From: Candidatus Dichloromethanomonas elyunquensis
Lineage (GTDB): Bacteria; Bacillota; Desulfitobacteriia; Desulfitobacteriales; Syntrophobotulaceae
Direction of reading: 5' to 3'
Assembly (NCBI GenBank): GCA_001515265.1
Contig: LNDB01000011.1
Coordinates: forward strand, 1,848-65,847
Length of the DNA: 64,000 nt
The notes beneath the pieces were generated by a model, which was not told where the DNA came from, did no database searches, and saw only the letters and a list, made by a program, of their open reading frames with translations. Below, piece by piece: positions 50,036 to 63,929 of this stretch; within the stretch, counting starts at the first letter, position 1; every line of letters begins with the position of its first letter. The translations under genes and the position numbers were made by a program.

Positions 50036-50093
50036 TGCCATGGATTGCAAGGAACGGAAAAACTTCGAAGAATTCAAATTATAGTCTTCTGAT

Positions 50094-50263
50094 GCGAGTT
50101 GAAAAAAGCCGGTTATGCGAATGCCCTAATAAGCGCTCAGAAGGTATTGGCCAAAGAAAACTTTTCCAACTTCACGCCTCACCCTTTGGTCGTTAAGCTG
50201 ACGTATTCCCATCCTCCAATCAGTCAGCACATTGAAGCGCTTGTTACGAGTTGGCATCCGTAA
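50094..50263 (+). pseudogene. 3' fragment of an M48 (Ste24/HtpX-like) metallopeptidase gene
   Basis: Translation KKAGYANALISAQKVLAKENFSNFTPHPLVVKLTYSHPPISQHIEAL matches the typical M48 C-terminus (..ENLSNLTPHPL...YSHPP..ERI.AL). No upstream catalytic domain is present. Confidence 0.45.
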
Positions 50264-51659
50264 AGATTTTAATCAGTTCCATTTTACTGTTAATATTCAG
50301 CTTCTGGTAAATATTTTTGATATGATATTTTAGGGTGTTCTCACTGATCAATAGTTTTTCGGAAATCGCTTTATAGGTATATCCTTTGCGTAACAGCTTA
50401 ACGATTTCCGTTTCCTTGCCGGTCAATCGTTTGTTGTCTTGAAAAACCGTGAAGGGTTCTTTTTGCTCTTCTGCCTTTACTTCTGATTCAAAAATAAAGG
50501 GATGGCTTTGCAATAAGATTCTGAGCTGCTTTTGGAGAACCGGCAGCAAAATCAGGACACTAAAGATGACAAACAGTGCCAGGATGACTGCATAATATAT
50601 GGCATATGGTGTTAAAAAAATATAATCCCCGACAAAACCGCCTAAAATGATTCCTAATACATTCATGGAGAGCCCCATTCCAAAGATTAGGGCCGGATTA
50701 CGGTAATAATCAAGAAGGTTGCCTAGAATACTCCAAAAAAACAGATCACAAACCCCAAAAGCGCCCAGCATAAGAGTGTCAATCAATAGATAGGTCGCCA
50801 CGGATTTTTGCAGCAGCATAAATGATAAAAAAGAAAGACCAATCATAATCATAGCTACATAGAGAATATAGGCCTTGCTGATCTTTATGGATAAATTACG
50901 CAGGATTAGCAGCGTCACGATATAAGGAACCGCCCAGTAATAGCTGGCCAAAAATTTGTATTCCGCGAAGACTGGATTAACCACGCGGTACATCAGCCCG
51001 GAGTTAATGGTAATCATTACGATAAAAATACTTAAAATTACAAGCGGTTTATAAGCTAATCGCGGGTATTTGGTTAATGGGATACTTATCCTGGTATTTC
51101 CACCGGAATAGCTTTGCAGCCTGAAGGATAGGAAGAAGGATCCAAGAAGTAAGAGCATCTCAAATCCCAAGCCAATATAGGCTGAAAAATTGATGGCCAG
51201 AATGTTGGCCAAAATCATCAAGATGTTGGATAGGATCAGTACATTGGCGGCTGTTTTCAGACGGTCGTCCTTCTGAGTATGGGCCTGAAAGAAAAACCCC
51301 CACCCGGCAACGACCAGACCGGCCGTGTAAGCCATGACTGCCAATACAAGGTACCAAAGCCAGGAAGAATGAAATAAAAAAATAATACTGCCTGCCAGAC
51401 ATAAACCGGCAGATAAGGATAAGACTGTTTTAGCGGCCGGCAGTTTATTAATGATGAAACCGCCGGTTATTAGTCCGGTGAAATGGGCACATAGTGCTGC
51501 CAAATTTAGAAAAGAATAAGACAATGCTTGAGATTCCAATAGAGAAGAAAGAACTTGGCCCTCAAAAGGAAAGGATAATAACCAGCCGAAAAACAAGGAA
51601 AAACTTAGTGTTGAAAATAATTTTTGTTTATTTAATTCCTTGAGTCCCAGTAAAAACAT
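50244..51659 (-). CDS. Membrane-embedded LuxR-family transcriptional regulator
   Basis: About 10-12 TM helices over the first ~390 aa, then the LuxR HTH LTGKETEIVKLLRKGYTYKAISEKLLISENTLKYHIKNIYQKLNI. Confidence 0.85.
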   Translation of the reverse strand: MFLLGLKELNKQKLFSTLSFSLFFGWLLSFPFEGQVLSSLLESQALSYSFLNLAALCAHFTGLITGGFIINKLPAAKTVLSLSAGLCLAGSIIFLFHSSWLWYLVLAVMAYTAGLVVAGWGFFFQAHTQKDDRLKTAANVLILSNILMILANILAINFSAYIGLGFEMLLLLGSFFLSFRLQSYSGGNTRISIPLTKYPRLAYKPLVILSIFIVMITINSGLMYRVVNPVFAEYKFLASYYWAVPYIVTLLILRNLSIKISKAYILYVAMIMIGLSFLSFMLLQKSVATYLLIDTLMLGAFGVCDLFFWSILGNLLDYYRNPALIFGMGLSMNVLGIILGGFVGDYIFLTPYAIYYAVILALFVIFSVLILLPVLQKQLRILLQSHPFIFESEVKAEEQKEPFTVFQDNKRLTGKETEIVKLLRKGYTYKAISEKLLISENTLKYHIKNIYQKLNINSKMELIKIFTDANS

Positions 51660-51784
51660 AACTTTTTCCTCGATCTTCCCCGTTGCATTATTTAATTCTA
51701 CATTTTACACTATTTTTGTAAAGTATAGTAGAGTTTTAAGGATATTAGCGAGGATCTTTGCCTACCTTTCGATAAATGCAATAA

Positions 51785-51804
51785 GGGGTGCTTTTAGACA
51801 CCCC
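51785..51804 (-). terminator. Stem-loop terminator candidate downstream of the minus-strand operon
   Basis: GGGGTG-cttttaga-CACCCC 29 nt past the AIM24-family stop, with T-rich flanks on the minus strand. Confidence 0.5.
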
Positions 51805-51832
51805 GATGACAAATTATGAACTTGCGTTCTTC

Positions 51833-52522
51833 TTAATTGCTGCTACGCTGAACCGGCAGGAAGGGGATAATGGTCTTGGCCAGGTTCATGGCCGGCATGG
51901 TCTGCAGCCAGACGGGTCCTGGTCCCCTGAGTTCAGTGAGGAAGAGTCCTTCGCCGCCGAATAACACATTTTTAAAGCCTTTGGCCATTCTAACTTCCAT
52001 TTGAACATTGGATCCGTGGGCCGCTACGTGTCCTGTATCTACAACCATAACCTCTCCAGGCTGAAGGTTATGCTGAATTGTGCTGCCGTCAATTTCTAAG
52101 AAGGTCTTTCCGGGGCCGGTAATACGCTGCATAATGAAGCCTTCCCCTCCAAATAGACCTGCGCCCATTTTCTGTTTGAAATGGATTTCCAACTGGACGC
52201 TTTTCTCCGCGCATAAAAAGGCTTTCTTCTGGGCGATGATGCTTTCCCCGGATTGGAGATCAAAAGGAATAATACTCCCCGGGAAGGAAGCGGGAAACGA
52301 AATAACCCCTTCCCCATTGCCGCAGGTATAGGTCGTCATAAAAAGGGATTCCCCTGAGAACTTACGGGTAAGACCACCCAGCAAGCCGCCCTCCATATTG
52401 GTGCTCATGCTGATGTTTGAACTCATCCAGCCCATCCCGCCGCTTTCGGTGAAAAGGCTCTCTCCAGGCGAAAGTTTACAAACGACTACCGGCATACTGC
52501 CGCCAAGAATTTCATACTGCAT
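51833..52522 (-). CDS. AIM24/TIGR00266-family protein
   Basis: 229 aa. The N-terminus MQYEILGGSMPVVVCKLSPGESLFTESGGMGWMS is typical of the DUF124/AIM24 family. Confidence 0.7.
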   Translation of the reverse strand: MQYEILGGSMPVVVCKLSPGESLFTESGGMGWMSSNISMSTNMEGGLLGGLTRKFSGESLFMTTYTCGNGEGVISFPASFPGSIIPFDLQSGESIIAQKKAFLCAEKSVQLEIHFKQKMGAGLFGGEGFIMQRITGPGKTFLEIDGSTIQHNLQPGEVMVVDTGHVAAHGSNVQMEVRMAKGFKNVLFGGEGLFLTELRGPGPVWLQTMPAMNLAKTIIPFLPVQRSSN

Positions 52523-52564
52523 ATTGACACCTCTTTCCAGTCATGTAAATGAATATTATTTATT

Positions 52565-53278
52565 TTAAGCCGACAAATCAGACAATGCCGCAGCGGACCA
52601 AGACCAGGCCAGAAGCTCTGTTACCTGGGAAACTCCTACCGGGCGAATACTTAACTGTGATATCGTTGGCAACGTTAGAAAGAATAAAGCCTTTGAGCTT
52701 CCGTAGAAGGTCATGATAAGCGGTTTATCCATCCCCGGACCGGCAACGTTGACCTCAAGAAAAAGGCTATTGCGGGTAAAAGCCTGGGCTAATTCCCATC
52801 CCACAGGGGTGAGCCAGAAGAAGTCGTCCTCCAAAAGAGGAGCTTCTGCCTCCGCGTTCCAGCTTCCGGTGAGGAGACCGTCAGAGTACAGTGATTTAAG
52901 AGCCGGCCACAAGAGCTCCGGGCCTTTCGCTGTGAAAGCGCTTATCTGCCCGGCGGTCACCATAGCTATAACTCCGGCTTCCAGGTATTGAATGAGTATC
53001 TCACCCAGCTGGCGAAGCAGGGTGTACGCATCCTCGTTCAAAGAAAATAATCCCATGTCAGAGGCTGGATAAGGGACCAAGAATCGTCCGGTTTCTTCCT
53101 GCATCTGTTTAATAGCTTCAAATACACTTGCGTAGCGGCGCACTGTGCTGCCACGAGTATCGGAGCTGGAAGTAAAAATGCCATCGGCTGACGTGAAGAA
53201 ACCGGTGGAAAGAGAGCTTTCCGCCTGCCAGCCGGTTATCGACATCATTCTAACCAGATTTCCAGTATTCTCGTTCAT
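52565..53278 (-). CDS. Hypothetical soluble protein (237 aa)
   Basis: Long ORF with no recognisable motif. Its start codon abuts the stop of the upstream 756-aa gene. Confidence 0.6.
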   Translation of the reverse strand: MNENTGNLVRMMSITGWQAESSLSTGFFTSADGIFTSSSDTRGSTVRRYASVFEAIKQMQEETGRFLVPYPASDMGLFSLNEDAYTLLRQLGEILIQYLEAGVIAMVTAGQISAFTAKGPELLWPALKSLYSDGLLTGSWNAEAEAPLLEDDFFWLTPVGWELAQAFTRNSLFLEVNVAGPGMDKPLIMTFYGSSKALFFLTLPTISQLSIRPVGVSQVTELLAWSWSAAALSDLSA

Positions 53279-55549
53279 CTACATGCCTCCTTTTCCATTT
53301 AGTGAATTGAGAATGTTTTGCAGCTGTACCTGCTGGTCGGAGGGTAGACCGGGGACGGTAAGGCGTTGCTGCAAAGCTAGTTTCTGCGCCTCGTTCAGGG
53401 CGTTTTGCATTGCGGGGTCAGACCAATTTTGGACCACAGGTGCTTGTGGGCCTAAGTCGCCGGTAACTCCGTCCATGGCCCTATTGGTCAAGTACTCTAC
53501 CAGTTTGGAGGGGCTGGCGTCATAGCCTAATGTGGCTTTGGTAGCGTATTTGAAAGCTGTATCCCCCAAACCGACTACCGGATTTTTTGTAAGGACGGTT
53601 TTTACCCCTACCTGAATGCCGGATTTGGTTAGTGCTTTGACCGTCGAGTCACCTGCCGCCATATAACCGGCAGTGTAATTGGCAGCATCATTCACCTTGG
53701 AAATTATATTTACACCATTACAGAAATTCTCTTCTCCGGGGGATACACCATACAGATTATATTGTTTTGCCATATCGGTAATCCCGGTATGAATACCCAG
53801 TCCATCAAAGATTTGTTCCCTTTGATCATTGAAAGGTAAAGGCGCCCCATCCATTATTTCCTGGCGCAGGGCGTACTTTTCGTTATACGTTAAGTTTGGT
53901 TTATTGGTATCCTGCAGCATCTGGCTCAAGGCATGATTGATACTATTTTTATCTCCTAAAGTCTGGCCGTTTGCGTTCACGGTCATGTTCTGCACCAATT
54001 TATTCATATCATCATAGGCTTGACTGGTGGGAGCATTCTGGATGATCCAGAGTTTAGTCTGAATATCATCGGTGCTGGACCATAACCCGGCCTGTTTGGC
54101 AGCCATTTCGGCCTGAACAACCTTATTCAGATCAACCTTATTGCTTGTAAACTCCTGCCAGTGCTGATTACGGCTGGCTTCGGTCTGAGCCAAGTCATCG
54201 GGAGTCTTCCAGCCCCATTCTTTGGAATAAACCATGCCCTGCTGTAAAAATGACTGATCCCTGGCGAATTGATCCTTAGACACCCAACCGCCGCCGTCCA
54301 CCTCGGACCAGACCAAACCCTGCTGATTAACCGTGCCATGGGCAGGAGGATAACCGGCTCCGTAAGAAACATCAGGAGTGGGACTCGGAGTAAGAGGTAT
54401 GGCGGGATCAAGGGCAACCCCTCCAAAGGAGCCGGCTAATAATGAACCGACTAAAGCTCCCAATGCCGGAGGTAAACCTATAAGAAAGGCTCTGATGGAT
54501 CCTTCGCTTCTCAGCCAGGAACCAAGGTTCCCCCCGGATTCCACCCAACCGCCGTCATCGGCCAGCGTATTCGCGGGAGTGCACAGAATCAGGATAATAT
54601 TGAGGCCAATATATAGAAAAAGCCAGGAATAGGAAGTTCTGTCTGTTCGGCTTTTTTGGACAAAAGCCAATACAATTGAAAATAAAATAAGCAAATATAT
54701 GCTGTACGGTTTGAAAGGAAGTATGGCAAAAATTACAAATCCAACAGCTATACCACCTAACGCCGCGATAGCGGTATTGCGGTTAAAGTTTCCTGCCGGT
54801 TTGTTTTTATGGAATAAACGGTTCCAATCTGACCATGCCAGCCTGGCGATGGTAAAGAATATACCATCGCTTTGGCTGCTTAAACTCACAACTATAACCA
54901 CGGCCAGCAACAGGCAGGCCAAAGGATTTTTTATTAACAGACTCAGCACAAGGCTTGAAGCGCCAAAGATCAGCATTATTAACAGGCCCAGGTTTCCGGT
55001 CTGTTTAACGGCCTGGATTATAGTTGACGGCACATGCCCAACTTGTCCGAAAAATGAACCGAGCTGTCCTTGTTTTAATTTAGTAAACAAAGATATAACC
55101 AACCAGGACAGGATCATCCAGACAATTGTTCCACCGGCTACTTGCCCTCTCAGGGCTAAAATATTGGATAAAAAAGTAGCTTCCGGAGCAAATCCGCCGT
55201 TGGGACCCACTACTAAAAAAGTATGAATGAGAAGCACCAGCACACCCATTAGGATCATCCGGGGCAAATTTTTAATAAATCCCTTGAGTAAACTTCTTAG
55301 AATTTGGAGAAGAAACTTAGCTAACGTTTCCGGAGATTTCCCGGTGGTGTCCTGGTGGTACATCGTCCAATTCTGTCCGTCCCATTTAAGCCAGCTGCCA
55401 TCCTGATGATTAATCTGCCACCAAACGCCATCCGGAGTTTGCAGCCGAATGTTCTGAGTCTCCTGCACAAACCGGTCATAATTTATAGCTCCCATGCGAA
55501 GCTGAACCTTAAGATGATCATACATCCCTTTAGCTTCTTCGAAAGTCAA
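53279..55549 (-). CDS. Hypothetical polytopic membrane protein (756 aa) with a Trp-rich N-terminal domain and a roughly 370-aa C-terminal soluble domain
   Basis: N-terminus DGVWWQINHQDGSWLKWDGQNWTMY, then about 9-10 TM helices (aa ~95-385), then a hydrophilic Q/N-rich C-terminal domain. 4-nt ATGA overlap with the upstream gene. Confidence 0.65.
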   Translation of the reverse strand: MTFEEAKGMYDHLKVQLRMGAINYDRFVQETQNIRLQTPDGVWWQINHQDGSWLKWDGQNWTMYHQDTTGKSPETLAKFLLQILRSLLKGFIKNLPRMILMGVLVLLIHTFLVVGPNGGFAPEATFLSNILALRGQVAGGTIVWMILSWLVISLFTKLKQGQLGSFFGQVGHVPSTIIQAVKQTGNLGLLIMLIFGASSLVLSLLIKNPLACLLLAVVIVVSLSSQSDGIFFTIARLAWSDWNRLFHKNKPAGNFNRNTAIAALGGIAVGFVIFAILPFKPYSIYLLILFSIVLAFVQKSRTDRTSYSWLFLYIGLNIILILCTPANTLADDGGWVESGGNLGSWLRSEGSIRAFLIGLPPALGALVGSLLAGSFGGVALDPAIPLTPSPTPDVSYGAGYPPAHGTVNQQGLVWSEVDGGGWVSKDQFARDQSFLQQGMVYSKEWGWKTPDDLAQTEASRNQHWQEFTSNKVDLNKVVQAEMAAKQAGLWSSTDDIQTKLWIIQNAPTSQAYDDMNKLVQNMTVNANGQTLGDKNSINHALSQMLQDTNKPNLTYNEKYALRQEIMDGAPLPFNDQREQIFDGLGIHTGITDMAKQYNLYGVSPGEENFCNGVNIISKVNDAANYTAGYMAAGDSTVKALTKSGIQVGVKTVLTKNPVVGLGDTAFKYATKATLGYDASPSKLVEYLTNRAMDGVTGDLGPQAPVVQNWSDPAMQNALNEAQKLALQQRLTVPGLPSDQQVQLQNILNSLNGKGGM

Positions 55550-56583
55550 GGCATTCCCTCCAATCTTTTATATAATTGCTGCACAGCTTCCGGTGAAAGA
55601 CGGTTTAAACCGTCACGGGTACCAATCCAGATATTTCCTTCAGCATCTTCCAGCACCTTTTTTACCTCGGAATTAGCCAAGCCGCTTTTTTCGTTTAAGA
55701 CCAGCTTCTTCCCATCTTTGTATATGGAAACACCGTCATATTCGGACCCCAGCCAATAATAGCCCGGGGTATCCTGAGTAAGAGACCTGACCTTGGCTCC
55801 TGCCAGAACATCCTTTTCATTCAAAACCTGCTTAATCTTCCAAAGTTCACCTTCCTTACTAAGGATGCAGGCTCCGCCTCGATCCAACAACCCCCCTCCT
55901 GCCCAGACCAGTCCTTCCCGGTCTTGATACAAGGTGCTGATATTGTTGTGAGGCAGTCCCTGAGCCACGGAGAAATATTGCCACTTACCGTCTTTGTAAT
56001 AACTTAAACCGCCCTGGGGGGCTATCTTTGATCCGAACCACAAGCCGCCAGCATTGTCTGACAAAATGACGTTAACCATATCAGCCAATAAACCGTCATT
56101 CTTCGTGAGGATTTTTTTTATTCCGTCCCGGTAATAAACCGCCCCTCCCCAGGTGCCGGTCCAAATTCCACCCGCAGAGTCGCTTTCAAGAGTTAAAACC
56201 CTATTATCCGGCAGACCATCGGCAGTGGTTATATTGGTAAACTTATGGCCGTCCCAACATGATAACCCCTGGTCATGTCCGATCCATAGACGTCCCGAGT
56301 TATCCAGAAGAAGAGCCCTGACCGAGTGCAGTTCAGGCTGGGCCGCCAGCTTCTGTAATACTTGGCCGTCACTGCGCCTGATCTGGTAAACTCCTTCCTC
56401 CCCGCCGGCCCACAAAATATCTCCTTGCAGAATCAGTGCGGATACTTCATGGGGAGGACGAATAAGCTGCCAGCCCTTGGGAAGAGGTTGTTTAAAGTTC
56501 TGGCTCAGTAAGTGGCCGCCCAAAGAAAAAATAGCCAAAATAACAAGTACATAAAATGAGATTCTAATTTTGTTCCAATTCAT
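55546..56583 (-). CDS. Membrane-anchored beta-propeller protein (two-component-regulator propeller repeats)
   Basis: N-terminal TM helix ISFYVLVILAIFSLGG, then repeated G-LW-G-..GL blocks (GRLWIGHDQGL, GGIWTGTWGG, GGLWFGSK, GLVWAGG, YYWLGSEYDG, GNIWIGTRDGL). Confidence 0.7.
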   Translation of the reverse strand: MNWNKIRISFYVLVILAIFSLGGHLLSQNFKQPLPKGWQLIRPPHEVSALILQGDILWAGGEEGVYQIRRSDGQVLQKLAAQPELHSVRALLLDNSGRLWIGHDQGLSCWDGHKFTNITTADGLPDNRVLTLESDSAGGIWTGTWGGAVYYRDGIKKILTKNDGLLADMVNVILSDNAGGLWFGSKIAPQGGLSYYKDGKWQYFSVAQGLPHNNISTLYQDREGLVWAGGGLLDRGGACILSKEGELWKIKQVLNEKDVLAGAKVRSLTQDTPGYYWLGSEYDGVSIYKDGKKLVLNEKSGLANSEVKKVLEDAEGNIWIGTRDGLNRLSPEAVQQLYKRLEGMP

Positions 56584-57256
56584 CTTGCCGGTTCAGGACA
56601 CCTCCTTTCATATGCAGAATCCTGTCTGATATTGTCCTGGCCTCTACCGGATCATGAGTCACATAAAGGATGGTTATGTGGTTCTGCTCTGTTATCCTTA
56701 AGATAAATTCCAGAAGTTGTTCTCTGCTGTCACTATCCAGGTTGGACAAAGGTTCATCCATGAGAATACTGCAAGGATAGGGAGCGATAGATCGGGCCAA
56801 CGCCACCCTGCGGGCTTCACCGCCGGAAAGATTAGAAGGATAACGTCCGGCCAGCTTTTCCAGTCCGGTTTCTTCCAACACATCTTTTAAACGTCTGTCA
56901 GCCTCGAATTTCTCCATCTTTTGCAAACCGAAGCGTATATTGTCCGCAACGGTCATATGCGGCCACAGGGCGGGAGACTGGAAAACAAACCCGAGTCGGC
57001 GGCGGTGTGGCTCCAGAATCCATTTTGATGTGCTGACACATTCGCCAAACAGGTTGATACTTCCCTCATCCGGTCCCTCCAACCCCGCTATAATACGCAG
57101 CAATGTGCTTTTACCTATACCCGAGGGGCCTACGATCACAGCGCGCTCCCCCGGCTCGAGGTCTAAATTAAGACCCTGCAGCACTTTTCGGGATCCATAA
57201 CTTTTAGTAATCTGATTGGCCTGAATAGCTTGAATTGCTTTAGTCATCTTCCCCAC
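56564..57256 (-). CDS. ABC transporter ATP-binding protein (FbpC/PotA-like, no C-terminal regulatory domain)
   Basis: Walker A GPSGIGKST, signature LSGGEARRV and Walker B ILMDEPLS. Only 230 aa. Confidence 0.88.
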   Translation of the reverse strand: MGKMTKAIQAIQANQITKSYGSRKVLQGLNLDLEPGERAVIVGPSGIGKSTLLRIIAGLEGPDEGSINLFGECVSTSKWILEPHRRRLGFVFQSPALWPHMTVADNIRFGLQKMEKFEADRRLKDVLEETGLEKLAGRYPSNLSGGEARRVALARSIAPYPCSILMDEPLSNLDSDSREQLLEFILRITEQNHITILYVTHDPVEARTISDRILHMKGGVLNRQDELEQN

Positions 57257-58829
57257 CCCACATGCGCAGTACGGATTTTATAAGAACGAAACCCACCACC
57301 GCTGATATTAATGCAATCAGGAGGCATAGTCCAGCTACCTGATCGGATGAGCCGTAATGCAGATAATTATAAATTTTCAGTGTCAGTGTACCCTGTCCGG
57401 GCGGAACTACCAATAGCGTAGCTCCCAGTTCACCTCCCGTGAGAATAAAAACCAGACTGGCCGCGGCAATGAAACCGGGAGACATCATGGGCAATGTAAT
57501 CTTAAAAAAGGTCTGATGTCCATTCTTCTGTAATATACGGGCTGCTTCCAGATAGACCTTATTTTGCCTGCTTAATTGAGCTTGCAGTATCATCACGGCC
57601 CAAGGACTGAAACGAGACAGAGCCGCCATTACAGTCATCAGAAACGTGCCATAAACGGCCGATGTTTCAGGCCTGTTCCACAAATTTATTAGTCCGATTC
57701 CTATGAGCGGTGCCGGCATAACTAAGGGGAATAAAGCTGGAAGTCCGCCCAGAAAGAAGCGGGATCGTTGATTCAACCAAATAGCCACAGCGTATGCTAA
57801 AGGTAGCGCTGCCGCAGCGGTAATAAACATAATGCCGAAGGTGTAAGCTATTTCTATTTTGGAAGAAGCCAGAGAAACCACAAAACTCTGCCAGGATCCC
57901 ACAAGTTTAAGCAACATCAAAATCGGCACAATGATTTGCAGCACCATCAGTGTCACAGAAATACGTTCGAATAACCTCCATCCGGGCCAACCCCGGAATG
58001 TAGGCAACCATTCTAAGAATCCAAAGCCTGGCTGAACGGACGCTTTCTTCCAGGTCAGACCGGCCGCTCCGGCTATAATTACCGCCAATATCACCAGCGG
58101 TAAAGCCAGTAGTAAAGCCCTTAAAGGATCATTGGTGGCACTAAATTCCGCGAATATTTCCAGAGGATATATATTTACCTGAAACAACGAAGGTACGCTG
58201 TAGTCCATCAGAGTAAGCAGGAAGATAAGCAGTCCTGCTCCGGCTAAAACAGGTGCAGCTAAGGGCAATATCACCTGTTTCATTACCTGACGATCACTTT
58301 GCAGCATATACCCGGCTTTAACCAAATTCTGTTCAACACAGGCCAGGGCCATCAGGGATAATCCCAGAGCAAAAGGTAAAAGGGCCATGGACTGAACCCA
58401 CAGGCTTACTCTCCATCCCTCGACAGGCAGACGCCATCCTGTAAAAAACTCCATAGACTGATTGAAATAATATAAAGCGGATGACCAAGACAAAGCATGT
58501 ATATAAGGAGGAACAGCTACAGTGGCAACGGACCACCACAGGATCGTCCTGCTTAGCCTGCCGGGCCGGCGCAGAAGAGCAAAAGCACCAGTGAAACCAA
58601 TTAGCAGTGTAATAACTGAAACTCCCAGGGAATAAGACACAGTTTTGCTGAGCAGCAGTAGGCGGCGGCCGGATGGTATAATCAACTGCCAAAAATCAGA
58701 GGGTATTTTCTGCGCCTGAACCCATTTTAAGACCAAGCCAATAAGCGGTCCCAAAACAATAACCATAAAGAGTAAGGAGCCAACGCTTATTAAAATCGTT
58801 GACCAGGATATTCTGAACTTATTATTCAT
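57240..58829 (-). CDS. Two-domain ABC transporter permease (FbpB/ThiP type)
   Basis: 529 aa with about 12 TM helices. The duplicated permease architecture is typical of iron(III)/thiamine-family importers. Confidence 0.8.
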   Translation of the reverse strand: MNNKFRISWSTILISVGSLLFMVIVLGPLIGLVLKWVQAQKIPSDFWQLIIPSGRRLLLLSKTVSYSLGVSVITLLIGFTGAFALLRRPGRLSRTILWWSVATVAVPPYIHALSWSSALYYFNQSMEFFTGWRLPVEGWRVSLWVQSMALLPFALGLSLMALACVEQNLVKAGYMLQSDRQVMKQVILPLAAPVLAGAGLLIFLLTLMDYSVPSLFQVNIYPLEIFAEFSATNDPLRALLLALPLVILAVIIAGAAGLTWKKASVQPGFGFLEWLPTFRGWPGWRLFERISVTLMVLQIIVPILMLLKLVGSWQSFVVSLASSKIEIAYTFGIMFITAAAALPLAYAVAIWLNQRSRFFLGGLPALFPLVMPAPLIGIGLINLWNRPETSAVYGTFLMTVMAALSRFSPWAVMILQAQLSRQNKVYLEAARILQKNGHQTFFKITLPMMSPGFIAAASLVFILTGGELGATLLVVPPGQGTLTLKIYNYLHYGSSDQVAGLCLLIALISAVVGFVLIKSVLRMWGGEDD

Positions 58830-58832
58830 GGC

Positions 58833-59849
58833 TTAGCGTACGAATATTTCTTTAAGCTCTTTAGAGCTCAAATTCAACTGATTATAGATTTCCTGAAAGG
58901 TAACGGGCATATTTTTTACTCCTCCGGCGGGCAGCTCCATTTTCTGTTCAGCTACCGGATGCACAGGAATTTGGCTGAAACCGATTTCCACCATATTTTT
59001 TTCAACTTGGGGGCTAAGCAGGTAGTCAAGCAGCTGCTTACCGGTGTCGGGATTCGGTCCGCCCTTGATGAGAGCAATGGTATCCGGGATTACCAGCGTC
59101 CCCATTGAATCCTGATCGGGGAAAATGATCTTAACCGGTTTACCTTTTTCTACAGCATCCCAGGCATCATCGGTATCAGTCAGTCCCGCCGCGAGCTGAC
59201 CCTCGGCGACCATATCACGAACCACTGAATTACCATCGACAACTCTTACCCCAAGTTTATTCACGTTTTCAAAGAAACTCCGGGCTTTTTCCGGACCTAA
59301 GTAAGCATAGAGCGCTGCCGCCTGGTTTAACGTAGTTCCGAAAAGGGGGTAAGCCAAGCCGTAATGGTTTGAGGCCTTGACAGGATCAGCAAAGTCCAGG
59401 ACAGACTCTGGATATTGATCCGGCGTTAACAGATCGGTATTTACCAGAATAACTCTAGCCCGCCCGGCAAAGGCAGTCCAAAAACCTTCAGGATCTTTAT
59501 ATATAGGCGGTATGGACTGGGCTGAAGGTGATGAATAAGTCGTCAAAAGACCTTCGTTTTTCAGCAAGAGGGTCTGAACAAACTCCGAACTCCAGAAAAC
59601 ATCAGCCTGGGGCCGGTTTTTTTCCGTCAGCAGCCTGTTGACCAGTCCGGTTGTCTTCGTGGATTCCACATCATAAACTGCACGAACCTGGATGCCTGTC
59701 GTCTTTTCGAAGTCCTTGAGTATTGGCTCGGCGACCACCTGATCCACCGAGGTGTAAATCACGACTTGCTTAGATGAAGAGCAGCCTGTAGACAATATAA
59801 AACATAGCATCAACAAAAATAGCCCGACTTTTTTCAACATCCCCATCAT
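58833..59849 (-). CDS. ABC transporter substrate-binding lipoprotein (family-1 solute-binding, Fbp/Afu-like)
   Basis: Signal peptide with lipobox LSTGCSS; 338 aa; VVIYTSVD..ADVFWSSE pattern. Confidence 0.78.
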   Translation of the reverse strand: MMGMLKKVGLFLLMLCFILSTGCSSSKQVVIYTSVDQVVAEPILKDFEKTTGIQVRAVYDVESTKTTGLVNRLLTEKNRPQADVFWSSEFVQTLLLKNEGLLTTYSSPSAQSIPPIYKDPEGFWTAFAGRARVILVNTDLLTPDQYPESVLDFADPVKASNHYGLAYPLFGTTLNQAAALYAYLGPEKARSFFENVNKLGVRVVDGNSVVRDMVAEGQLAAGLTDTDDAWDAVEKGKPVKIIFPDQDSMGTLVIPDTIALIKGGPNPDTGKQLLDYLLSPQVEKNMVEIGFSQIPVHPVAEQKMELPAGGVKNMPVTFQEIYNQLNLSSKELKEIFVR

Positions 59850-59880
59850 CCTTTATTTCTATAAATTGTTTTATTTATTT

Positions 59881-60969
59881 CTACTTCACAACAAATTTCG
59901 CAACACCGGATTCCTTGCCGTTTAAGATAAGTGTAGCCTGATAGTTGCCCACCGGCCAGCCGTTGGTGGGGCGGCTCAGACTGAAGCCTACCCGGGCATC
60001 GCCGTTGATCTTTTGGGTCGGTCCATTAATAGACTGGTTCTGCTGGTCAAGGTAAGTCCAGCGAATGTCCACCGCGGTATTGCCTTTGACATTGGTAACC
60101 ATCGCAGAGAAAAAGATTTCCGGGGTATCGGTTTTAAACGTACTGGTAGGATTCTGCAAATTCTGCGCGCTATCCAGACCCAGACCCACACCCATGTCTT
60201 TTATGGCCATTCCCCCGCTCTTTTCAACGGTAAACTGGGCAGTCGTCGTAAAGGCGACAGCGCCGCCCATTAAAAGGCAAAAACATAAAAACCAACACAA
60301 AATAACCACAAAGAAATTACGCCTTGAGTACCAGCGACGCAGAAGGAAGCTCACAACCATAATAGCTCCGTAGACAACCCAACCTAAAGGCTTCGCTCCG
60401 CCTGCGCCAAAAAAGATGGCATAAAATAAGCCAATGAGGATAAATGGAACCCAAAACTTAAAGGCGGATACTTTACCTTTACTATTTGGAGGGTTGTTCG
60501 CGGAACCGTAAGGCGCTGCCCCGCTTGCCTGATAAACGCTTTGATAAACACCGCCCGCTTGTCCGGACTGATTTTGATATCCAGGCTGATTATATTGCGG
60601 AGGCTGATTATACTGTTGTTGAGGTTGTTGATTATATTGAGGTTGTTGATTGTACTGGGGCTGCTGAGGCTGCTGATTATACTGAGGCGATTGCGGCGGT
60701 TGTTGTGGCGGCGGAGGAGGCTGCATTTGCGGTTGGGGCGGTGGTGTTGGTTGAGCCGGCTGGGTGGGTTGTGTATAGCCTTGAGGCCCATAGCCCTGAG
60801 GAGTATAACCCTGGCCGGGAGGCGCTTGGGGCTGGCTGTGTAAAGGTTGGGCAGGCTGATTGACTTGCTGGTTGGGCGGCGGATTCTTTCCTTGAGGGCT
60901 GAAACTTCCAAAAGCCCCGCCAATAACGCCGCCATCTTGATTTTCGGGCTTACGATAATCGTCACTCAT
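59881..60969 (-). CDS. Membrane protein with a roughly 115-aa Pro/Gln/Tyr-rich low-complexity N-terminal region and a C-terminal beta-rich domain
   Basis: GGAGG RBS 9 nt before ATG 60969. Repeats PQYNQQPQQPQYNQQPQYNQQPQQQYNQPPQYNQPGYQNQ. Three hydrophobic helices (aa ~175-250). C-terminal domain ends GNYQATLILNGKESGVAKFVVK. Confidence 0.7.
   Translation of the reverse strand: MSDDYRKPENQDGGVIGGAFGSFSPQGKNPPPNQQVNQPAQPLHSQPQAPPGQGYTPQGYGPQGYTQPTQPAQPTPPPQPQMQPPPPPQQPPQSPQYNQQPQQPQYNQQPQYNQQPQQQYNQPPQYNQPGYQNQSGQAGGVYQSVYQASGAAPYGSANNPPNSKGKVSAFKFWVPFILIGLFYAIFFGAGGAKPLGWVVYGAIMVVSFLLRRWYSRRNFFVVILCWFLCFCLLMGGAVAFTTTAQFTVEKSGGMAIKDMGVGLGLDSAQNLQNPTSTFKTDTPEIFFSAMVTNVKGNTAVDIRWTYLDQQNQSINGPTQKINGDARVGFSLSRPTNGWPVGNYQATLILNGKESGVAKFVVK
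60555..60897 (-). repeat. Imperfect tandem coding repeats (P/Q/Y/N-rich low-complexity region)
   Basis: Plus-strand units such as ctgattatattg / ttgttgattatattgaggttgttgattgtactgg recur, encoding QPQYNQ-type units. Confidence 0.8.
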
Positions 60970-61191
60970 CTTTTTCATCCTCCAAAACATGATTTTGTTG
61001 TTAATTAAAGCTTTATGAATACAAATAAAATGATAGCCGCTACGGCCATAATAAAGAAAATGATACCTGAGGCACGGTCAGCTCACCGTTCCTTTTTCAG
61101 CACAGCCCATATAGACACCTCTCTCATCATGCTGTAATATGAATGATATCAGCTAGCGGCAATGGATATAACACACAAAATATGTAGTCAA

Positions 61192-61230
61192 GAAAAAACA
61201 CCCCACACAAAATGTGTGAGGGTGTTTTTT
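61192..61230. terminator. Bidirectional rho-independent terminator
   Basis: AAAAAACACCCCACACA-aaat-GTGTGAGGGTGTTTTTT, just downstream of the kinase pseudogene 3' end. Confidence 0.8.
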
Positions 61231-61253: not shown

Positions 61254-62476
61254 TTAGATTGTTTTGGTAATTGTCAGACCAAGACCGAATTTTCCTTTTT
61301 TCCCTTTATAGAATCGTGTAAAAAGGTTTTTTAAGTCCTCGGGATCAAACCCTGGACCGTCATCACTTATCGTTAAAACCAATTGATCGGTTAGAAGGTT
61401 GCTAATATCTACTTTAATGTCTATCTTGCTTTTGGCATAACGGAGGCAATTACTGATAATATTCGTTAGGGCCCTGGATAGTTTTTCTTCATCCCCTATT
61501 AAGAAAACTTTATTTTGGGGGAGTTGAAGGGAAATTTTGATATTCTCCTTATTCGCCAGAATTTTCATCCGTTCAGTTACGTCTTTGACGGCATCACTAA
61601 AATTGACGGATTTAAAAACGTACATTTCTTCATCCGTATCCAGCCTGGACAGATAGAGCAAATCTTCCACCAGTGAACAAAGCCGTTTCGATTCATCGAT
61701 AATAATATCCGTGGCAGTATGATTTTCTTCCACAACTCCGTACTTCAAACCTTCAGCATAACTTTGGATGACCATCAGCGGGGTTCTGAATTCGTGGGAG
61801 GCATTTTGCAAAAATATTTTTTGGGCTTGATCATAAGCTTCTAATTTTTCGGACATCCGGTTTACGTTCTCGGCTAGCTCCTGGATCTCGTTATCTGCCA
61901 CGATATTTACGTTGGAAATGAATTTCCGATCGGCCAGCGAACGGATATGTTCTTTTAAAGAAGTAAGCGGGCGTGAAATCCGCCTTGAGACAGAAGAAGA
62001 GACTGCTAGACTCAGAAGAGCCGTTACCAAGATAATGATTAAAAGAATAAGATTAATCACATTCTTCAAACCGGCTATTTGTTCCAGACTCGTATATAGA
62101 ACAATATAATTAATATTAATTTTGTTTGCAGGGGCAGGAATAAGGATCGCTGCATATTTAGTATGTCCATAATATACGGTAGCTTTTTTTCATTATGATT
62201 ATCACCAGCTGATTTTATTAATTCATTCAAAATGCTGTTCTCCAGTGTTTGACCTTGAGAATCAACCCTATCCGGTTGGACAACATTTAACTTATCATTC
62301 ACTAAAAAAGACTGAGCATTGATCACGGAAATATTCTTATTAAATGAGTTCACAATTTTATGGGAGGCCATAACCAGAGAGCGGTTATCATTCGTCAAAA
62401 AAGTAAAGCTGTCAGCTTGTTTGGAAAACGTATCTTTTGTTGGACCGGCACGGGAAGCCAATTGAGTCATGTCCAA
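61254..62476 (-). pseudogene. Degraded sensor histidine kinase (split into two ORFs and truncated at both ends)
   Basis: ORF 61254-62069 has a TM helix, the H-box ASHEFRTPL, and N/G boxes (SNCLRYA, DDGPGF, GLGL), but stops before the usual C-terminal ~30 aa. ORF 62075-62476 carries the sensor domain in another frame. No response regulator is adjacent. Confidence 0.75.
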
Positions 62477-62560
62477 TCGTCTTTAGCTGGACAAAATGGT
62501 CAAGTTTTAGACGGTTATGATATAGCAGATTGATTTAGATTATAATAAAAGTTAAAGTCT

Positions 62561-62998
62561 TTGATTGCAGGAGCAAAAGCCTTGTTCTTCACTGGAACAG
62601 GGCTTCAGTTTATTCCAAATCTTTATTATGCTTTAGAAATTCAACAGGATGAGCAAATTGCTCAAACGCTTGCCAAATTTGAAGAGGATCATCAAAGACA
62701 TGCCCATCAACTTGCCCAGAGAATCAGCGACCTCGGGGGTCGGCCTAAAGCAAGTACAGGTTATACAGGTATTATGGCTGATATAAATTCAGTGATTAAT
62801 TCCTTCCGGGGGCCGGAGGAGTTTCTAACACAAATATACAACGGGGAAGATAAAGGGATTCATGCTTATGAAGACCGCATTGATGAAATTGATCCGGTAA
62901 GCCAGGAAATTGTAAAACAGATCATGCGTGAAGATCATGAACACCTGAAATGGTTTAAAACGAGGATGGAAAAGGAAAAAGCCGAATATAACCAATAA
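62561..62998 (+). CDS. Ferritin-like four-helix-bundle domain protein (DUF2383-like)
   Basis: EEDHQRHAHQLAQRISDLGGRP and REDHEHLKWF helices. Start uncertain (TTG 62561); the N-terminal helix looks atypical. Confidence 0.5.
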   Translation: MIAGAKALFFTGTGLQFIPNLYYALEIQQDEQIAQTLAKFEEDHQRHAHQLAQRISDLGGRPKASTGYTGIMADINSVINSFRGPEEFLTQIYNGEDKGIHAYEDRIDEIDPVSQEIVKQIMREDHEHLKWFKTRMEKEKAEYNQ

Positions 62999-63189
62999 AA
63001 TGATTTCTTATAGCGAGGGTTTGACTTTGCCAAGTATGACCATGGAATTTAAATAATAGGTATAAGTAAAAACAATCCTGGAATCACTCAAGGAACCTTA
63101 GAACCCTTTTATCAGCATAATTATTATGATATAATAAAATTAATTACATTATATGTAAATGGATTTAGATAAACTGGAGGAACACGTCT

Positions 63190-63486
63190 ATGGCTATGAT
63201 TTATACCATTAATGAAATAAAAAAAATCGCGGGCGAAATCGCCAAAAGTCATGGCGTGGAGAAAATGTTTCTCTTTGGCTCCTACGCCAGGGGGGACGCC
63301 AAACCAGATAGTGACTTGGATTTTCGCATAGATAAAGGTTCTATCCGTGGACTATTTGCGCTCGGCGGATTGTATGCTGATTTAGAGGATGCTTTTAGCG
63401 TACCTGTGGATTTACTCGTCACTGAAAGCCTTGATGAAGCTTTCCGAAAGGAAATCTCATCTGAGGAGGTGCAGATTTACGGATAA
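63190..63486 (+). CDS. MNT-type nucleotidyltransferase antitoxin
   Basis: GSYARGDAKPDSDLDF (GSxxRGxxxxxSDxD) motif; 98 aa. Confidence 0.85.
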   Translation: MAMIYTINEIKKIAGEIAKSHGVEKMFLFGSYARGDAKPDSDLDFRIDKGSIRGLFALGGLYADLEDAFSVPVDLLVTESLDEAFRKEISSEEVQIYG

Positions 63487-63826: not shown

Positions 63827-63929
63827 TATTATTGGAGAGTCTTTTGATTAAACAAAGTGGCAAGTGAATTTATTTGATAATTAAAATTTTGCAAAAAGGC
63901 TATGGATTCTTTTACTGAATAGACTTTCA

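What the first reader, a model, noticed from the sequence alone, without database searches (positions are those of the whole stretch)
52565..60969. Translationally coupled seven-gene operon joining an Fbp-type ABC importer to a membrane-anchored beta-propeller and two large proteins of unknown function
Gene order on the minus strand is: P/Q/Y-rich membrane protein, solute-binding lipoprotein, 12-TM permease, ATPase, TM-anchored propeller, 756-aa polytopic protein, 237-aa soluble protein.

The junctions are a 31-nt gap, a 3-nt gap, a 17-nt overlap, a 20-nt overlap, a 4-nt ATGA overlap, and direct abutment. This implies one transcript and coupled translation. An AIM24-family gene follows after 42 nt, and a stem-loop terminator comes only after it.

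The 756-aa protein has three parts: a Trp-rich N-terminal module (DGVWWQINHQDGSWLKWDGQNWTMY), about 9-10 TM helices, and a ~370-aa hydrophilic C-terminal domain. I recognise no motif in it or in the 237-aa protein.

Propeller repeats of this type normally occur inside sensor kinases, not as free-standing partners of a transporter. I am not aware of this gene combination having been described.
Basis: partly seen in the sequence, partly recalled or inferred. Interest (0 to 1): 0.65.

Follow-up and report, generated by a model that had tools for sequence, protein, structure and literature searches.

The report
Conserved ABC importer–propeller–membrane protein module
The operon is real, and its five central genes (binding protein, permease, ATPase, membrane-anchored propeller and an unannotated 8-helix membrane protein) recur together in at least nine bacterial phyla, which marks a widespread envelope module that no protein-family library, solved structure or paper I could search accounts for.

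Summary
The 4-nt overlap is TTGA, not ATGA. The ATPase probably starts at an ATG, giving an 8-nt overlap. The membrane protein has 8 TM helices.

The neighbourhood is not a chance juxtaposition. SBP, permease, ATPase, propeller and membrane protein lie together (usually in this order) in about 35 of 63 genome loci seeded with the membrane protein. Searching from the SBP instead, the propeller follows in 27 of 36 informative metagenome loci, and a membrane protein of this architecture follows the propeller in 16 of 20.

The 756-aa protein belongs to a family of about 549 clusters. It has no Pfam, NCBIfam, PDB or Foldseek match. Its N- and C-termini are cytoplasmic, and its invariant residues (HT..PNGGF, A|DDGGWxExGG) face outward. 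Its cytoplasmic tail co-varies with the downstream gene. In this window both the tail and the 237-aa protein are orphans.

The SBP has the FbpA fold, but the iron-binding Tyr-Tyr and His are replaced by invariant Asp, so it is probably not an iron importer. The ATPase lacks the usual regulatory domain.

My best reading, which is inferred, is a transporter-coupled transmembrane sensing and assembly device with swappable cytoplasmic output pairs. Its function is untested.

The parts
59881..60969 (-). First gene. It encodes a P/Q/Y-rich cytoplasmic low-complexity region (about 170 aa), three TM helices and a beta-rich C-terminal domain of about 124 aa predicted to lie outside the cell. It is not conserved in related loci.
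   Evidence: ORF and translation. RBS GGAGGA before the ATG at 60969. TM and positive-inside analysis. No Pfam or NCBIfam hit. No tblastn hit in 66 loci. Other loci often carry zinc-ribbon plus P/Q-rich plus TM proteins at this position.
58833..59849 (-). Solute-binding protein, a probable lipoprotein of the FbpA/PhnS fold family. It has an all-carboxylate site (D36, E89, D227, D228) where FbpA has His/Glu/Tyr-Tyr.
   Evidence: Pfam SBP_bac_6/8/1/11. NCBIfam PhnS and PRK15046 hits fall far below cut-off. PDB FbpA/HitA at E 1e-20 to 1e-30. Invariant columns of 17 orthologues. Orthologues are 42-55% identical across phyla.
57240..58829 (-). Fused double permease of a type I ABC importer (two BPD_transp_1 halves, about 12 TM).
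   Evidence: Pfam PF00528, two stretches. NCBIfam PhnU2/ModB-type partial hits. Syntenic orthologues at 27-46% identity.
56564..57256 (-). ABC ATPase, short form (227-230 aa). It lacks the C-terminal regulatory domain usual in this clade. The likely start is the ATG at 57247.
   Evidence: Pfam ABC_tran E 4e-34. NCBIfam hits cover only positions ~1-215 of ~350-residue models. Orthologue median length is 236 aa. Junction sequence.
55546..56583 (-). Propeller anchored by an N-terminal TM helix (residues 8-26) and built of Reg_prop repeats, predicted to face outside. It has no kinase or other output domain.
   Evidence: Pfam PF07494 E 3e-28. PDB 4A2L/3V9F hybrid two-component sensor domains at E 8e-36 and 9e-27. 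TM prediction. Orthologues directly precede the membrane protein in most loci.
55361..55549 (-). N-terminal cytoplasmic module of the 756-aa protein (residues 1-63): a SHOCT-like helix pair followed by a small Trp-rich beta sheet.
   Evidence: AF2 pLDDT ~95, with H3-18, H24-32 and four strands. An HMM of this module finds it in 19 of 71 family members and in other neighbouring proteins. One such copy hits Pfam DUF1707 'SHOCT-like' at E 2e-4.
54410..55336 (-). Conserved 8-TM core of the 756-aa protein (residues ~72-380). This is the defining domain of an unannotated family.
   Evidence: 549 clusters at E<=1e-3 in 1.84e9 representatives. AF2 pLDDT >90 over most of the core. No PDB or BFVD fold match at E<=1e-3. 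No Pfam or NCBIfam hit.
54527..54562 (-). Invariant outward-facing motif A330|DDGGWVESGGN, just after TM7. The -3/-1 residues fit a signal-peptidase-I site.
   Evidence: In 106 distinct sequences: -1 Ala in 104, -3 Val/Ala in 91, DDGG in 106, E at +7 in 106. Invariant columns. Low-pLDDT loop at 327-330.
53282..54409 (-). Variable cytoplasmic tail of the 756-aa protein (residues 381-756). Only residues ~400-485 recur in a few relatives; the remaining ~270 residues are unique to this contig.
   Evidence: Singleton in tail clustering. phmmer hits cover only tail residues 13-100. AF2 is confident only for residues 400-470. Cytoplasmic location follows from a C-terminal FHA domain in relative L013 and from the even TM count.
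52565..53278 (-). 237-aa soluble orphan protein. It occupies the slot that in relatives holds a partner protein, which usually ends in zinc ribbons or an FHA domain.
   Evidence: Strong RBS and abutment. No homologue in 5.8e9 proteins or in any fetched locus. No relation to partner families by hmmsearch or hhalign, probability 0.2. AF2 pLDDT 32, uninformative.
51833..52522 (-). AIM24/TIGR00266-family protein, a recurrent accessory of the cassette in Clostridia.
   Evidence: Pfam PF01987, 240 bits; TIGR00266, 120 bits against a cut-off of 96.6. AIM24 lies directly upstream of the SBP in L004, L005, L016, L021 and L025 at 54-59% identity. Some of these ORFs also carry a P/Q-rich stretch and a Cys4 zinc-ribbon-type pattern.
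51774..51804 (-). Stem-loop (GGGGTG / CACCCC) with a T-rich tail: the likely operon terminator.
   Evidence: Read directly from the sequence. No comparably strong terminator lies inside the operon.

Best explanation
Shown: this is one operon of probably eight genes. Its five central genes form a widely conserved envelope module:
- a solute-binding protein;
- a fused permease;
- a short ATPase;
- a membrane-anchored outward-facing propeller;
- an 8-TM protein of an unannotated family.

The 8-TM protein has both ends in the cytoplasm. Nearly all its invariant residues lie on two outward-facing loops (HT..PNGGF and A|DDGGWxExGG). It carries small cytoplasmic adaptor modules and a variable cytoplasmic tail that is matched to the gene downstream.

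Inferred mechanism: the module is a transporter-coupled transmembrane sensing and assembly device.
1. Outside the membrane, the propeller and/or the ligand-loaded binding protein contact the conserved acidic loops of the 8-TM protein.
2. The 8-TM protein relays this state to its cytoplasmic tail and the cognate partner. Here these are residues 381-756 and the 237-aa protein.
3. The tail and partner either act on a cellular target or regulate the importer. The importer's ATPase has lost the regulatory domain normally fused to it.

The importer most likely carries a cation or an amino-phosph(on)ate-type solute rather than ferric iron. The iron-binding Tyr-Tyr and His are replaced by invariant Asp.

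More speculative points:
- The 8-TM protein may be cut by signal peptidase I after Ala330. This would leave a short tethered acidic peptide outside the cell.
- The Trp-rich modules may bind the Pro-rich stretches of the first gene's product.
For: Operon structure: overlaps, abutment and RBSs; no comparably strong internal terminator.

Conservation:
- About 35 of 63 genome loci seeded with the TM core carry SBP, permease, ATPase and propeller beside it. They span Bacillota, Chloroflexota, Acidobacteriota, Cyanobacteria, Pseudomonadota, Desulfobacterota, Caldisericota, Planctomycetota and Actinomycetota. The family also occurs in ANME-2 and Methanosarcinaceae archaea.
- Seeding with the SBP instead, 27 of 36 informative loci have the propeller. 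In 16 of 20, a protein of this architecture follows the propeller.

Topology:
- N-terminal zinc ribbons and a SHOCT-like module, and a C-terminal FHA domain in L013, place both ends inside.
- There are 8 TM helices that obey the positive-inside rule.
- The invariant residues map to the outward loops.

Matched output pairs: tail type co-varies with downstream gene type. Zinc-ribbon, FHA, SHOCT-like and GYF modules are shared among the membrane protein, its partners and upstream proteins.

Importer:
- The ATPase lacks a regulatory domain.
- Iron ligands are replaced.

Published context: SHOCT-like domains are proposed to assemble complexes at the inner face of the membrane (PMC11237479).
Against: - No experiment or interaction prediction links the parts. 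Signalling is inferred from architecture alone.
- The tails and partners contain no recognised output domain such as a kinase, cyclase or DNA-binding domain.
- About a quarter of SBP orthologue loci lack the propeller and carry an exported ChrB_C protein or nothing. The importer can therefore work without the rest.
- About a third of membrane-protein loci lack the cassette within 10 kb. Some pair instead with another polytopic protein, 'c9'.
- The window's own tail and 237-aa protein are orphans, so nothing can be said about their activity.
Confidence: 0.4

Rival explanations
1. Scavenging pathway. The 8-TM protein is a membrane enzyme whose outward-facing His/Asn/Asp-Asp/Glu residues form an active or metal site. 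It releases a small head-group or ion from an envelope or environmental polymer held by the propeller. The ABC importer then takes up the product. The cytoplasmic tail and partner only regulate or localise the enzyme.
For: - The invariant polar residues H109, T110, N117, D331, D332 and E337 all face outward.
- Reg_prop propellers of hybrid two-component sensors are ligand-binding domains; this is background knowledge, with the homology shown.
- The SBP is highly conserved (42-55% identity), implying one specific substrate.
- The best NCBIfam hits are 2-aminoethylphosphonate binding proteins, though far below cut-off.
Against: - The fold resembles no known membrane enzyme.
- A purely metabolic role does not explain why the cytoplasmic tail and partner are swapped as matched pairs, or why they carry FHA and zinc-ribbon adaptors.
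- The importer also occurs without the 8-TM protein.
Confidence: 0.2
2. Conflict system. The family is a membrane-anchored polymorphic effector with a constant N-terminal part, a variable C-terminal effector and a cognate protective or regulatory partner downstream. It would serve in defence (abortive infection triggered at the envelope) or inter-bacterial competition. The importer and propeller would act as trigger, receptor or delivery aid.
For: - The architecture is a constant core plus a variable tail plus a co-varying downstream gene.
- Tandem core-partner pairs occur in L009 and L065. Extra core-propeller pairs occur in L035, L037 and L056.
- RHS repeats are fused to the core in L036 and encoded next to a related protein in L098.
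- The window's tail and partner are both orphans, as expected for fast-evolving pairs.
- The operon's GC content is 47-49% against 38-41% in the flanks.
Against: - The tails are cytoplasmic, with no export route.
- No toxin, nuclease or immunity domain appears in about 45 members and partners scanned.
- There are no PADLOC hits beyond the generic ATPase.
- Three tail types cover 42 of 62 proteins and are shared between phyla at low identity. This points to ancient stable pairs rather than an arms race.
- Partners are large and end in zinc ribbons or FHA domains, unlike typical immunity proteins.
Confidence: 0.15
3. Ordinary case. This is a standard ferric-iron (Fbp/Hit/Sfu) ABC importer that happens to sit next to unrelated hypothetical genes.
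For: The SBP's best solved-structure matches are ferric-binding proteins. The fused permease and gene order resemble fbpABC.
Against: - The Fe ligands are absent. FbpA His9 is replaced by invariant D36, and Tyr195/Tyr196 by invariant D227/D228.
- All NCBIfam scores are far below the family cut-offs.
- The neighbours are conserved partners across about nine bacterial phyla, with overlapping reading frames.
Confidence: 0.03

Closest known systems
FbpABC / HitABC / SfuABC ferric-iron ABC importers (and PhnSTUV 2-aminoethylphosphonate importers)
   Same: Same SBP fold family: PDB E 1e-20 to 1e-30, with PhnS the top NCBIfam hit. Same fused 12-TM permease with two BPD_transp_1 halves, and the same SBP-permease-ATPase logic.
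   Different: Iron-ligand positions are occupied by invariant Asp. All scores fall far below the equivalog cut-offs. The ATPase lacks the C-terminal regulatory domain. The importer is translationally coupled to a propeller and an 8-TM protein that these importers do not have.
Periplasmic sensor propellers of Bacteroides hybrid two-component systems (e.g. PDB 4A2L, 3V9F)
   Same: Same Reg_prop repeat propeller, E 8e-36, facing outside and tied to the membrane.
   Different: Here a propeller of only ~320 residues sits on a lone TM anchor. It has no Y_Y_Y domain and no kinase, receiver or DNA-binding output. Any signal must pass through a separate protein.
Transporter-linked sensing (e.g. BceAB-BceS, SBP-dependent sensors such as LuxP-LuxQ and TorT-TorS); named from background knowledge, not tested here
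   Same: The logic proposed here is the same: a transporter or its binding protein reports its state to a separate membrane signal transducer encoded beside it.
   Different: The transducer here is not a histidine kinase. It belongs to an unannotated 8-TM family whose cytoplasmic outputs are variable tails with matched partner proteins.
Polymorphic toxin systems (Rhs, CDI, LXG); named from background knowledge
   Same: A constant N-terminal part, a variable C-terminal part and a co-varying downstream gene, with occasional RHS repeats and tandem pairs.
   Different: The variable part is cytoplasmic. No toxin or immunity domains were detected. There are few, ancient tail types, and partners carry zinc-ribbon or FHA tails.
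SHOCT-like, zinc-ribbon and FHA adaptor proteins of membrane stress systems (PSP partners, PMC11237479; ArnA-type ZnR-FHA proteins, PDB 5A8I)
   Same: Same small cytoplasmic adaptor modules attached to membrane proteins and their partners.
   Different: No PspA, PspC, Toastrack or Band-7 component is present. The adaptors here decorate a different, unannotated core.

Membership tests
Type I (binding-protein-dependent) ABC importer | An SBP, a permease with the BPD_transp_1 fold, and an ABC ATPase with Walker A, signature and Walker B motifs | tested here: met
   Pfam SBP_bac_1/6/8/11, PF00528 (two stretches) and PF00005 at E 4e-34. GPSGIGKST, LSGGE and ILMDEP are visible in the translation.
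FbpA/HitA ferric-iron binding proteins | Fe3+ ligands: His9, Glu57, Tyr195 and Tyr196 (H. influenzae numbering, from background knowledge) | tested here: not met
   Alignments to 6IWF, 7W3W and 8K7N place invariant D227/D228 opposite Tyr-Tyr and invariant D36 opposite His. A Glu (E89) is retained near the Glu57 position.
FbpA/HitA ferric-iron binding proteins | Score above a curated family cut-off | tested here: not met
   No iron-SBP NCBIfam model is among the hits. The sfuA-named thiamine subfamily TIGR01254 scores 21 bits against a 93.4 cut-off. The best hit overall is PhnS PRK15046 at 98.7 against 310.
PhnS 2-aminoethylphosphonate binding proteins | Score above the equivalog cut-off | tested here: not met
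   98.7, 86.9 and 77.7 bits against cut-offs of 310, 395 and 393.
Reg_prop (two-component regulator) propeller | Repeats matching PF07494 above the gathering score | tested here: met
   94.6 bits against 20.4. PDB 4A2L at E 8e-36.
Hybrid two-component sensor (HTCS) | The propeller is fused to HisKA/HATPase, receiver and AraC output domains | tested here: not met
   The 345-aa protein holds only a TM anchor and Reg_prop repeats.
AIM24 / TIGR00266 | Full-length match above the curated cut-offs | tested here: met
   PF01987 at 240.4 bits against 25.7; TIGR00266 at 120.2 against 96.6.
Unannotated 'ADDGGW' 8-TM family (defined here) | A core of about 310 residues with HT..PNGGF and A-DDGGW-x-E-x-GG loops | tested here: met
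   The window protein scores 473 bits against the family profile. All invariant columns are present.
Downstream partner families c5, c10 and c11 (defined here) | Sequence similarity of the 237-aa protein to any of them | tested here: not met
   hmmsearch E>0.6. hhalign probability 0.2. Only the position in the operon is shared.
Polymorphic toxin / immunity pair | A recognised toxin domain, an export signal for the variable part, and a small cognate immunity protein | tested here: not met
   No toxin or immunity Pfam hits. The tail is cytoplasmic. Co-variation of tail and downstream gene is present.
Known anti-phage defence systems (PADLOC 2.0) | A match of any non-generic component | tested here: not met
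   Only generic ABC/AAA ATPase hits appear for the ATPase.
Signal-peptidase-I substrate (internal cleavage after Ala330) | Small residues at -1 and -3 after a hydrophobic helix, no Pro at +1, and experimental cleavage | tested here: inconclusive
   The sequence rule is met in 104 of 106 (-1 Ala) and 91 of 106 (-3 Val/Ala) sequences. Cleavage itself cannot be tested with these tools.

The most novel reading that the evidence does not exclude
The five-gene cassette is a previously unrecognised class of envelope signalling machine.
- An 8-TM protein with a fold unmatched in the PDB is processed by signal peptidase to expose a tethered acidic peptide, DDGGWxExGG.
- Through this peptide it reads the state of a dedicated ABC importer and a free-standing propeller.
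- It passes that state to interchangeable cytoplasmic tail-partner pairs, which are assembled through SHOCT-like, Trp-rich, zinc-ribbon and FHA adaptors.

This would be a modular alternative to two-component signalling, spread by horizontal transfer across bacteria and into archaea.
Probability: 0.25. Interest if true: 0.85.

Novelty: new variant of a known kind. Interest (0 to 1): 0.66.

Why it matters
If this reading holds, it matters in three ways.

1. A family of at least ~550 sequence clusters, present in about nine bacterial phyla and in methane-cycling archaea, would gain its first functional context. It is a membrane protein that always works next to an outward-facing propeller and usually next to one particular ABC importer.

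2. It would show a new way for a binding-protein-dependent importer to be wired to the cytoplasm, through a separate membrane protein with swappable output pairs rather than a regulatory domain on the ATPase.

3. It corrects an annotation that pipelines will propagate as 'iron(III) ABC transporter', because the iron ligands are absent.

The predictions are concrete and cheap to test:
- a cleavage site at Ala330|Asp331;
- an all-carboxylate ligand site in the SBP;
- binding between the tail and its partner;
- contact between the propeller and the outward loops.

Two named hosts that carry the cassette are Zhengella (cultured strains) and Alkalibaculum bacchi (a MAG of a described species).

Tried and rejected
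- Word-index homologue searches found only 3-4 relatives of the 756-aa protein and none of the 237-aa protein. A profile re-search of the same index returned one protein. The exhaustive profile search and the genome scan were what revealed the family.
- Foldseek of the AF2 model against PDB and BFVD found nothing at E<=1e-3. PDB sequence-profile searches of the core and of partner family c5 returned only designed proteins or zinc-ribbon/FHA tails.
- AF2 of the 237-aa orphan without an alignment gave pLDDT 32. I did not fold-search it because the result would be meaningless.
- I tested whether the 237-aa protein is a diverged member of partner families c5, c10 or c11. hmmsearch and hhalign were not significant. 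A co-linear low-confidence alignment exists but I do not rely on it.
- I looked for a riboswitch or leader RNA that would name the ligand. There is no Rfam hit, even at E<=1.
- PADLOC gave no defence-system match.
- Relaxed Pfam scans (E<=10) of the N-terminal module, the tail, the 237-aa protein and the P/Q/Y protein's C-terminal part (TM helices plus beta domain) found nothing usable.
- Literature searches on AIM24/DUF124/TIGR00266, Reg_prop and SHOCT/zinc ribbon found no description of this cassette.
- I considered that the shorter SHOCT-like TM proteins following the propeller in some metagenome loci are split versions of the same core. They share the N-terminal module and an 'A-(A/D)-D-x-C' post-helix motif but are not detected by the core HMM. 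I therefore call them architecturally analogous only.

Full report
**1. Observation**

By mechanical ORF coordinates the junctions are a 31-nt gap, a 3-nt gap, a 17-nt overlap, a 20-nt overlap, a 4-nt overlap, direct abutment, and a 42-nt gap before AIM24.

Reading the junctions gives these corrections:
- The propeller/756-aa overlap is TTGA. The start is a TTG, 6 nt after GGAGGG.
- The ATPase more likely starts at the ATG at 57247, as the contig's own gene call does. This gives an 8-nt ATGACTAA overlap.
- The 237-aa gene has a perfect AAAGGAGG RBS 7 nt upstream and abuts the preceding stop.

A strong terminator closes the upstream kinase gene at 61201-61221. Inside the operon the scan flags only weak short-stem sites, no more numerous than in shuffled sequence. 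A GGGGTG/CACCCC hairpin with a T-rich tail follows AIM24. The transcription unit is therefore probably eight genes.

The window comes from a 71.8-kb contig of JGI metagenome 3300005804.

**2. What the parts are**

Pfam and NCBIfam confirm:
- a family-1-type solute-binding protein;
- a fused permease with two BPD_transp_1 halves;
- an ABC ATPase;
- a Reg_prop propeller behind one N-terminal TM helix;
- an AIM24/TIGR00266 protein.

The P/Q/Y-rich protein, the 756-aa protein and the 237-aa protein match nothing, even at E<=10.

The ATPase is a short form. Its hits to about 350-residue models (PhnT2, UgpC, PotA, MalK, ModC) cover only positions ~1-215, and its orthologues have a median length of 236 aa. 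The C-terminal regulatory domain usual in this clade is therefore missing.

**3. The neighbourhood is conserved, in both directions**

The 756-aa protein has only three relatives in the word-indexed search. Two sit downstream of SBP-permease-ATPase-propeller, one of them in an Anaerolineales genome. The third sits on a short contig that begins inside the propeller gene.

A genome scan with the conserved core returned 63 loci. They come from Clostridia, Chloroflexota, Acidobacteriota, Cyanobacteria, Alphaproteobacteria (cultured Zhengella), Desulfobacterota, Caldisericota/Cryosericum, Planctomycetota and Actinomycetota, plus ANME-2 and Methanosarcinaceae archaea.

In about 35 of these loci, SBP, permease, ATPase and propeller lie beside the membrane-protein gene. 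Usually they are co-linear and overlapping. Identities to the window proteins are:

| Protein | Identity |
|---|---|
| SBP | 42-55% |
| Permease | 27-46% |
| ATPase | 37-53% |
| Propeller | 28-53% |

Several more loci show the propeller and then end.

AIM24 lies directly upstream of the SBP in five Clostridia loci. Some of these ORFs also carry a P/Q-rich stretch and a Cys4 zinc-ribbon-type pattern.

Seeding from the other side, a metagenome scan with an SBP alignment found at least 592 relatives. Among the best 80:
- 27 of 36 loci with enough sequence carry the propeller after the ATPase.
- 16 of 20 with enough sequence after the propeller carry a family member (11) or a shorter protein with the same N-terminal module and an analogous 'A-D-D' post-helix motif (5).

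The remaining importer orthologues stand alone or are followed by an exported ChrB_C protein. So the importer can exist without the rest, but the propeller is almost always followed by this kind of membrane protein.

The P/Q/Y-rich protein and the 237-aa protein have no relatives in any locus.

**4. The membrane protein family**

An exhaustive profile search finds 549 clusters (50% identity) at E<=1e-3, and 158 at E<=1e-30, among 1.84 billion representatives. No Pfam or NCBIfam model covers the core.

AlphaFold2 with a 70-sequence alignment gives pLDDT above 90 for the N-terminal module (residues 1-63) and most of the core (residues 70-280 and 340-375). Foldseek finds no match at E<=1e-3 in the PDB or BFVD.

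Topology:
- Relatives carry zinc ribbons or the SHOCT-like module at the N-terminus, and one (L013) has an FHA domain at the C-terminus. Both ends are therefore cytoplasmic.
- This agrees with eight TM helices and the positive-inside rule.
- Nearly all invariant residues then fall on two outward loops: H109-T110...P116-N117-G-G-F120 after TM1, and A330-D-D-G-G-W-x-E337-x-G-G...W345..S348.G350 after TM7.

In 106 distinct sequences, the residue before DDGG is Ala in 104. Position -3 is Val or Ala in 91, position -2 is bulky, and the preceding 18 or so residues are hydrophobic. This is the signal-peptidase-I rule, so internal processing is a testable possibility, not a result.

**5. Variable tails and matched partners**

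After TM8 the family diverges. Tails range from about 80 to about 1150 residues. BLAST clustering of 62 tails gives three main types and many singletons, and tail type predicts the downstream gene:
- Type 1 goes with a ~330-residue soluble protein (c5) ending in zinc ribbons or FHA.
- Type 2 goes with c11 followed by c10.
- Type 0 goes with short zinc-ribbon, FHA or GYF proteins.
- Type 4 goes with another zinc-ribbon protein.

The window's tail is a singleton, and its downstream gene is the orphan 237-aa protein. Only tail residues ~400-485 (a second Trp-rich element, confident in the model) recur in a few relatives.

The 237-aa protein is not detectably related to c5, c10 or c11. Its single-sequence model is uninformative, with pLDDT 32.

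Small cytoplasmic adaptor modules (zinc ribbon, FHA, SHOCT-like plus Trp-rich sheet, GYF) are shared among the membrane protein, its partners and the proteins upstream of the SBP. A published survey proposes that SHOCT-like domains assemble complexes at the inner face of the membrane (PMC11237479).

Two loci carry tandem core-partner pairs. One member is fused to RHS repeats, and one related protein is followed by an RHS gene.

**6. The importer is not an iron importer by its ligands**

The best solved relatives are FbpA/HitA proteins, at E 1e-20 with the single sequence and 1e-30 with a profile. In the printed alignments, the Tyr-Tyr pair of HitA (NNYYWY) lies opposite D227-D228, and the His of 8K7N (YNAQH) lies opposite D36. 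A Glu (E89) is kept near the Glu57 position. D36, E89, D227 and D228 are invariant in 17 orthologues from different phyla.

NCBIfam ranks 2-aminoethylphosphonate binding proteins first, but at a third or less of their cut-offs.

I infer a cationic or amino-phosph(on)ate ligand. The ligand itself is unknown. No riboswitch precedes the operon.

**7. Mechanism**

Shown:
- a conserved, translationally coupled module;
- an outward conserved face on the 8-TM protein;
- cytoplasmic matched tail-partner pairs;
- an ATPase without its regulatory domain.

Inferred (confidence 0.4): the propeller and/or the loaded SBP engage the outward loops. The 8-TM protein then couples this to its tail and partner, which regulate the importer or a cellular target.

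Rivals:
- a scavenging pathway in which the outward loops are catalytic (0.2);
- a conflict system with polymorphic cytoplasmic effectors (0.15);
- an ordinary iron importer with chance neighbours (0.03), which the data contradict.

The remaining probability is for something not yet imagined.

**8. Comparison and novelty**

The importer is a new member of a known kind. The propeller is a known domain in an unusual free-standing form. The 8-TM family, its partners, and the conserved partnership are not covered by Pfam (2025 copy), NCBIfam (2026), PADLOC, the PDB, or the papers I could search.

I file the whole as a new variant of a known kind: an ABC importer with dedicated accessory membrane components. 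I give a 0.25 chance that it is a distinct class of signalling device.

**9. Limits**

- Neighbourhood counts rest on simple ORF calling and on HMMs built here.
- Many contigs are short.
- Taxon labels are those of the MAG records.
- No interaction, cleavage, ligand or phenotype has been tested.

Noticed in passing
window 61254-62476 (-): The histidine kinase upstream of the operon looks split by a frameshift inside a TM-coding stretch. A 133-aa sensor-like ORF (62075-62476) ends '...LILIILFYIRVWNK'. A 271-aa HAMP-HisKA-HATPase ORF (61254-62069) starts 'MKNVINLILLIIILV' in another frame. This is either a pseudogene or an assembly error.
   Followed up: partly
window 61033-61110 (-): The ~230-nt leader before the first gene holds a 10-codon mini-ORF (MGCAEKGTVS) and a terminator-like hairpin (61033-61049) followed by a T-rich tract. 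This could be an attenuator. There is no Rfam match, even at E<=1.
   Followed up: partly
window 52000-60000 versus 40000-52000 and 62000-64000: The operon is 47-49% GC while its immediate flanks are 36-41%. Another 46-52% block lies at 20-38 kb. The contig is compositionally mosaic, which fits horizontal acquisition of the cassette.
   Followed up: no
window 63190-63826 (+): Two overlapping small ORFs look like a toxin-antitoxin-type pair. The 98-aa ORF carries a minimal nucleotidyltransferase motif (GSYARGD...DSDLD). The 145-aa ORF carries an Rx4H HEPN-type motif (RNIAAH). This was read from the translations only.
   Followed up: no
window 50244-51659 (-) and 48374-50035 (+): A polytopic membrane protein with a C-terminal LuxR/GerE helix-turn-helix lies just downstream of the operon on the same strand. 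Beyond it, on the opposite strand, is a 553-aa Cys-rich ORF that looks like an Fe-S protein (read from the translation only).
   Followed up: no
L036:4444-9018 and L098:10510-13932: RHS-repeat proteins (DUF6531 plus RHS) are fused to the 8-TM core in one genome. In one metagenome locus an RHS gene lies immediately after a related SHOCT-like TM protein.
   Followed up: partly
L105:11264-11755, L131:10933-11421, L142:11265-11759: Propeller-less versions of the same ABC importer (SBP 45-49% identical) carry an exported ChrB_C-domain protein right after the ATPase. A different outward-facing accessory protein thus occupies the same position.
   Followed up: partly
L007, L013, L024, L033, L054, L055, L058, L061-L064: In Chloroflexota, Actinomycetota and an Acidobacteriota locus that lack the ABC cassette, the 8-TM protein is paired with another unannotated polytopic protein ('c9', ~330 aa) that has a small C-terminal beta domain. 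This may be an alternative partner to the importer and propeller.
   Followed up: partly
L110:10709-15310 and L073:13818-17009: Some loci replace the single large protein with three genes: a SHOCT-like protein with 5-6 TM helices, a small 3-TM protein, and a large protein. The large protein starts with a signal-peptide-like helix, then an 'AADDCS..DCE' or 'GAHDCS..DCE' motif and another TM helix. This resembles a split form of the same architecture, but homology was not detectable.
   Followed up: partly
window 59881-60969 (-) and 55361-55549 (-): The first gene's cytoplasmic region is full of QPQY/PPQY-type repeats, while the 756-aa protein has two small Trp-rich beta modules (residues ~35-63 and ~410-450). 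A proline-motif/WW-like pairing between them is conceivable but untested.
   Followed up: no
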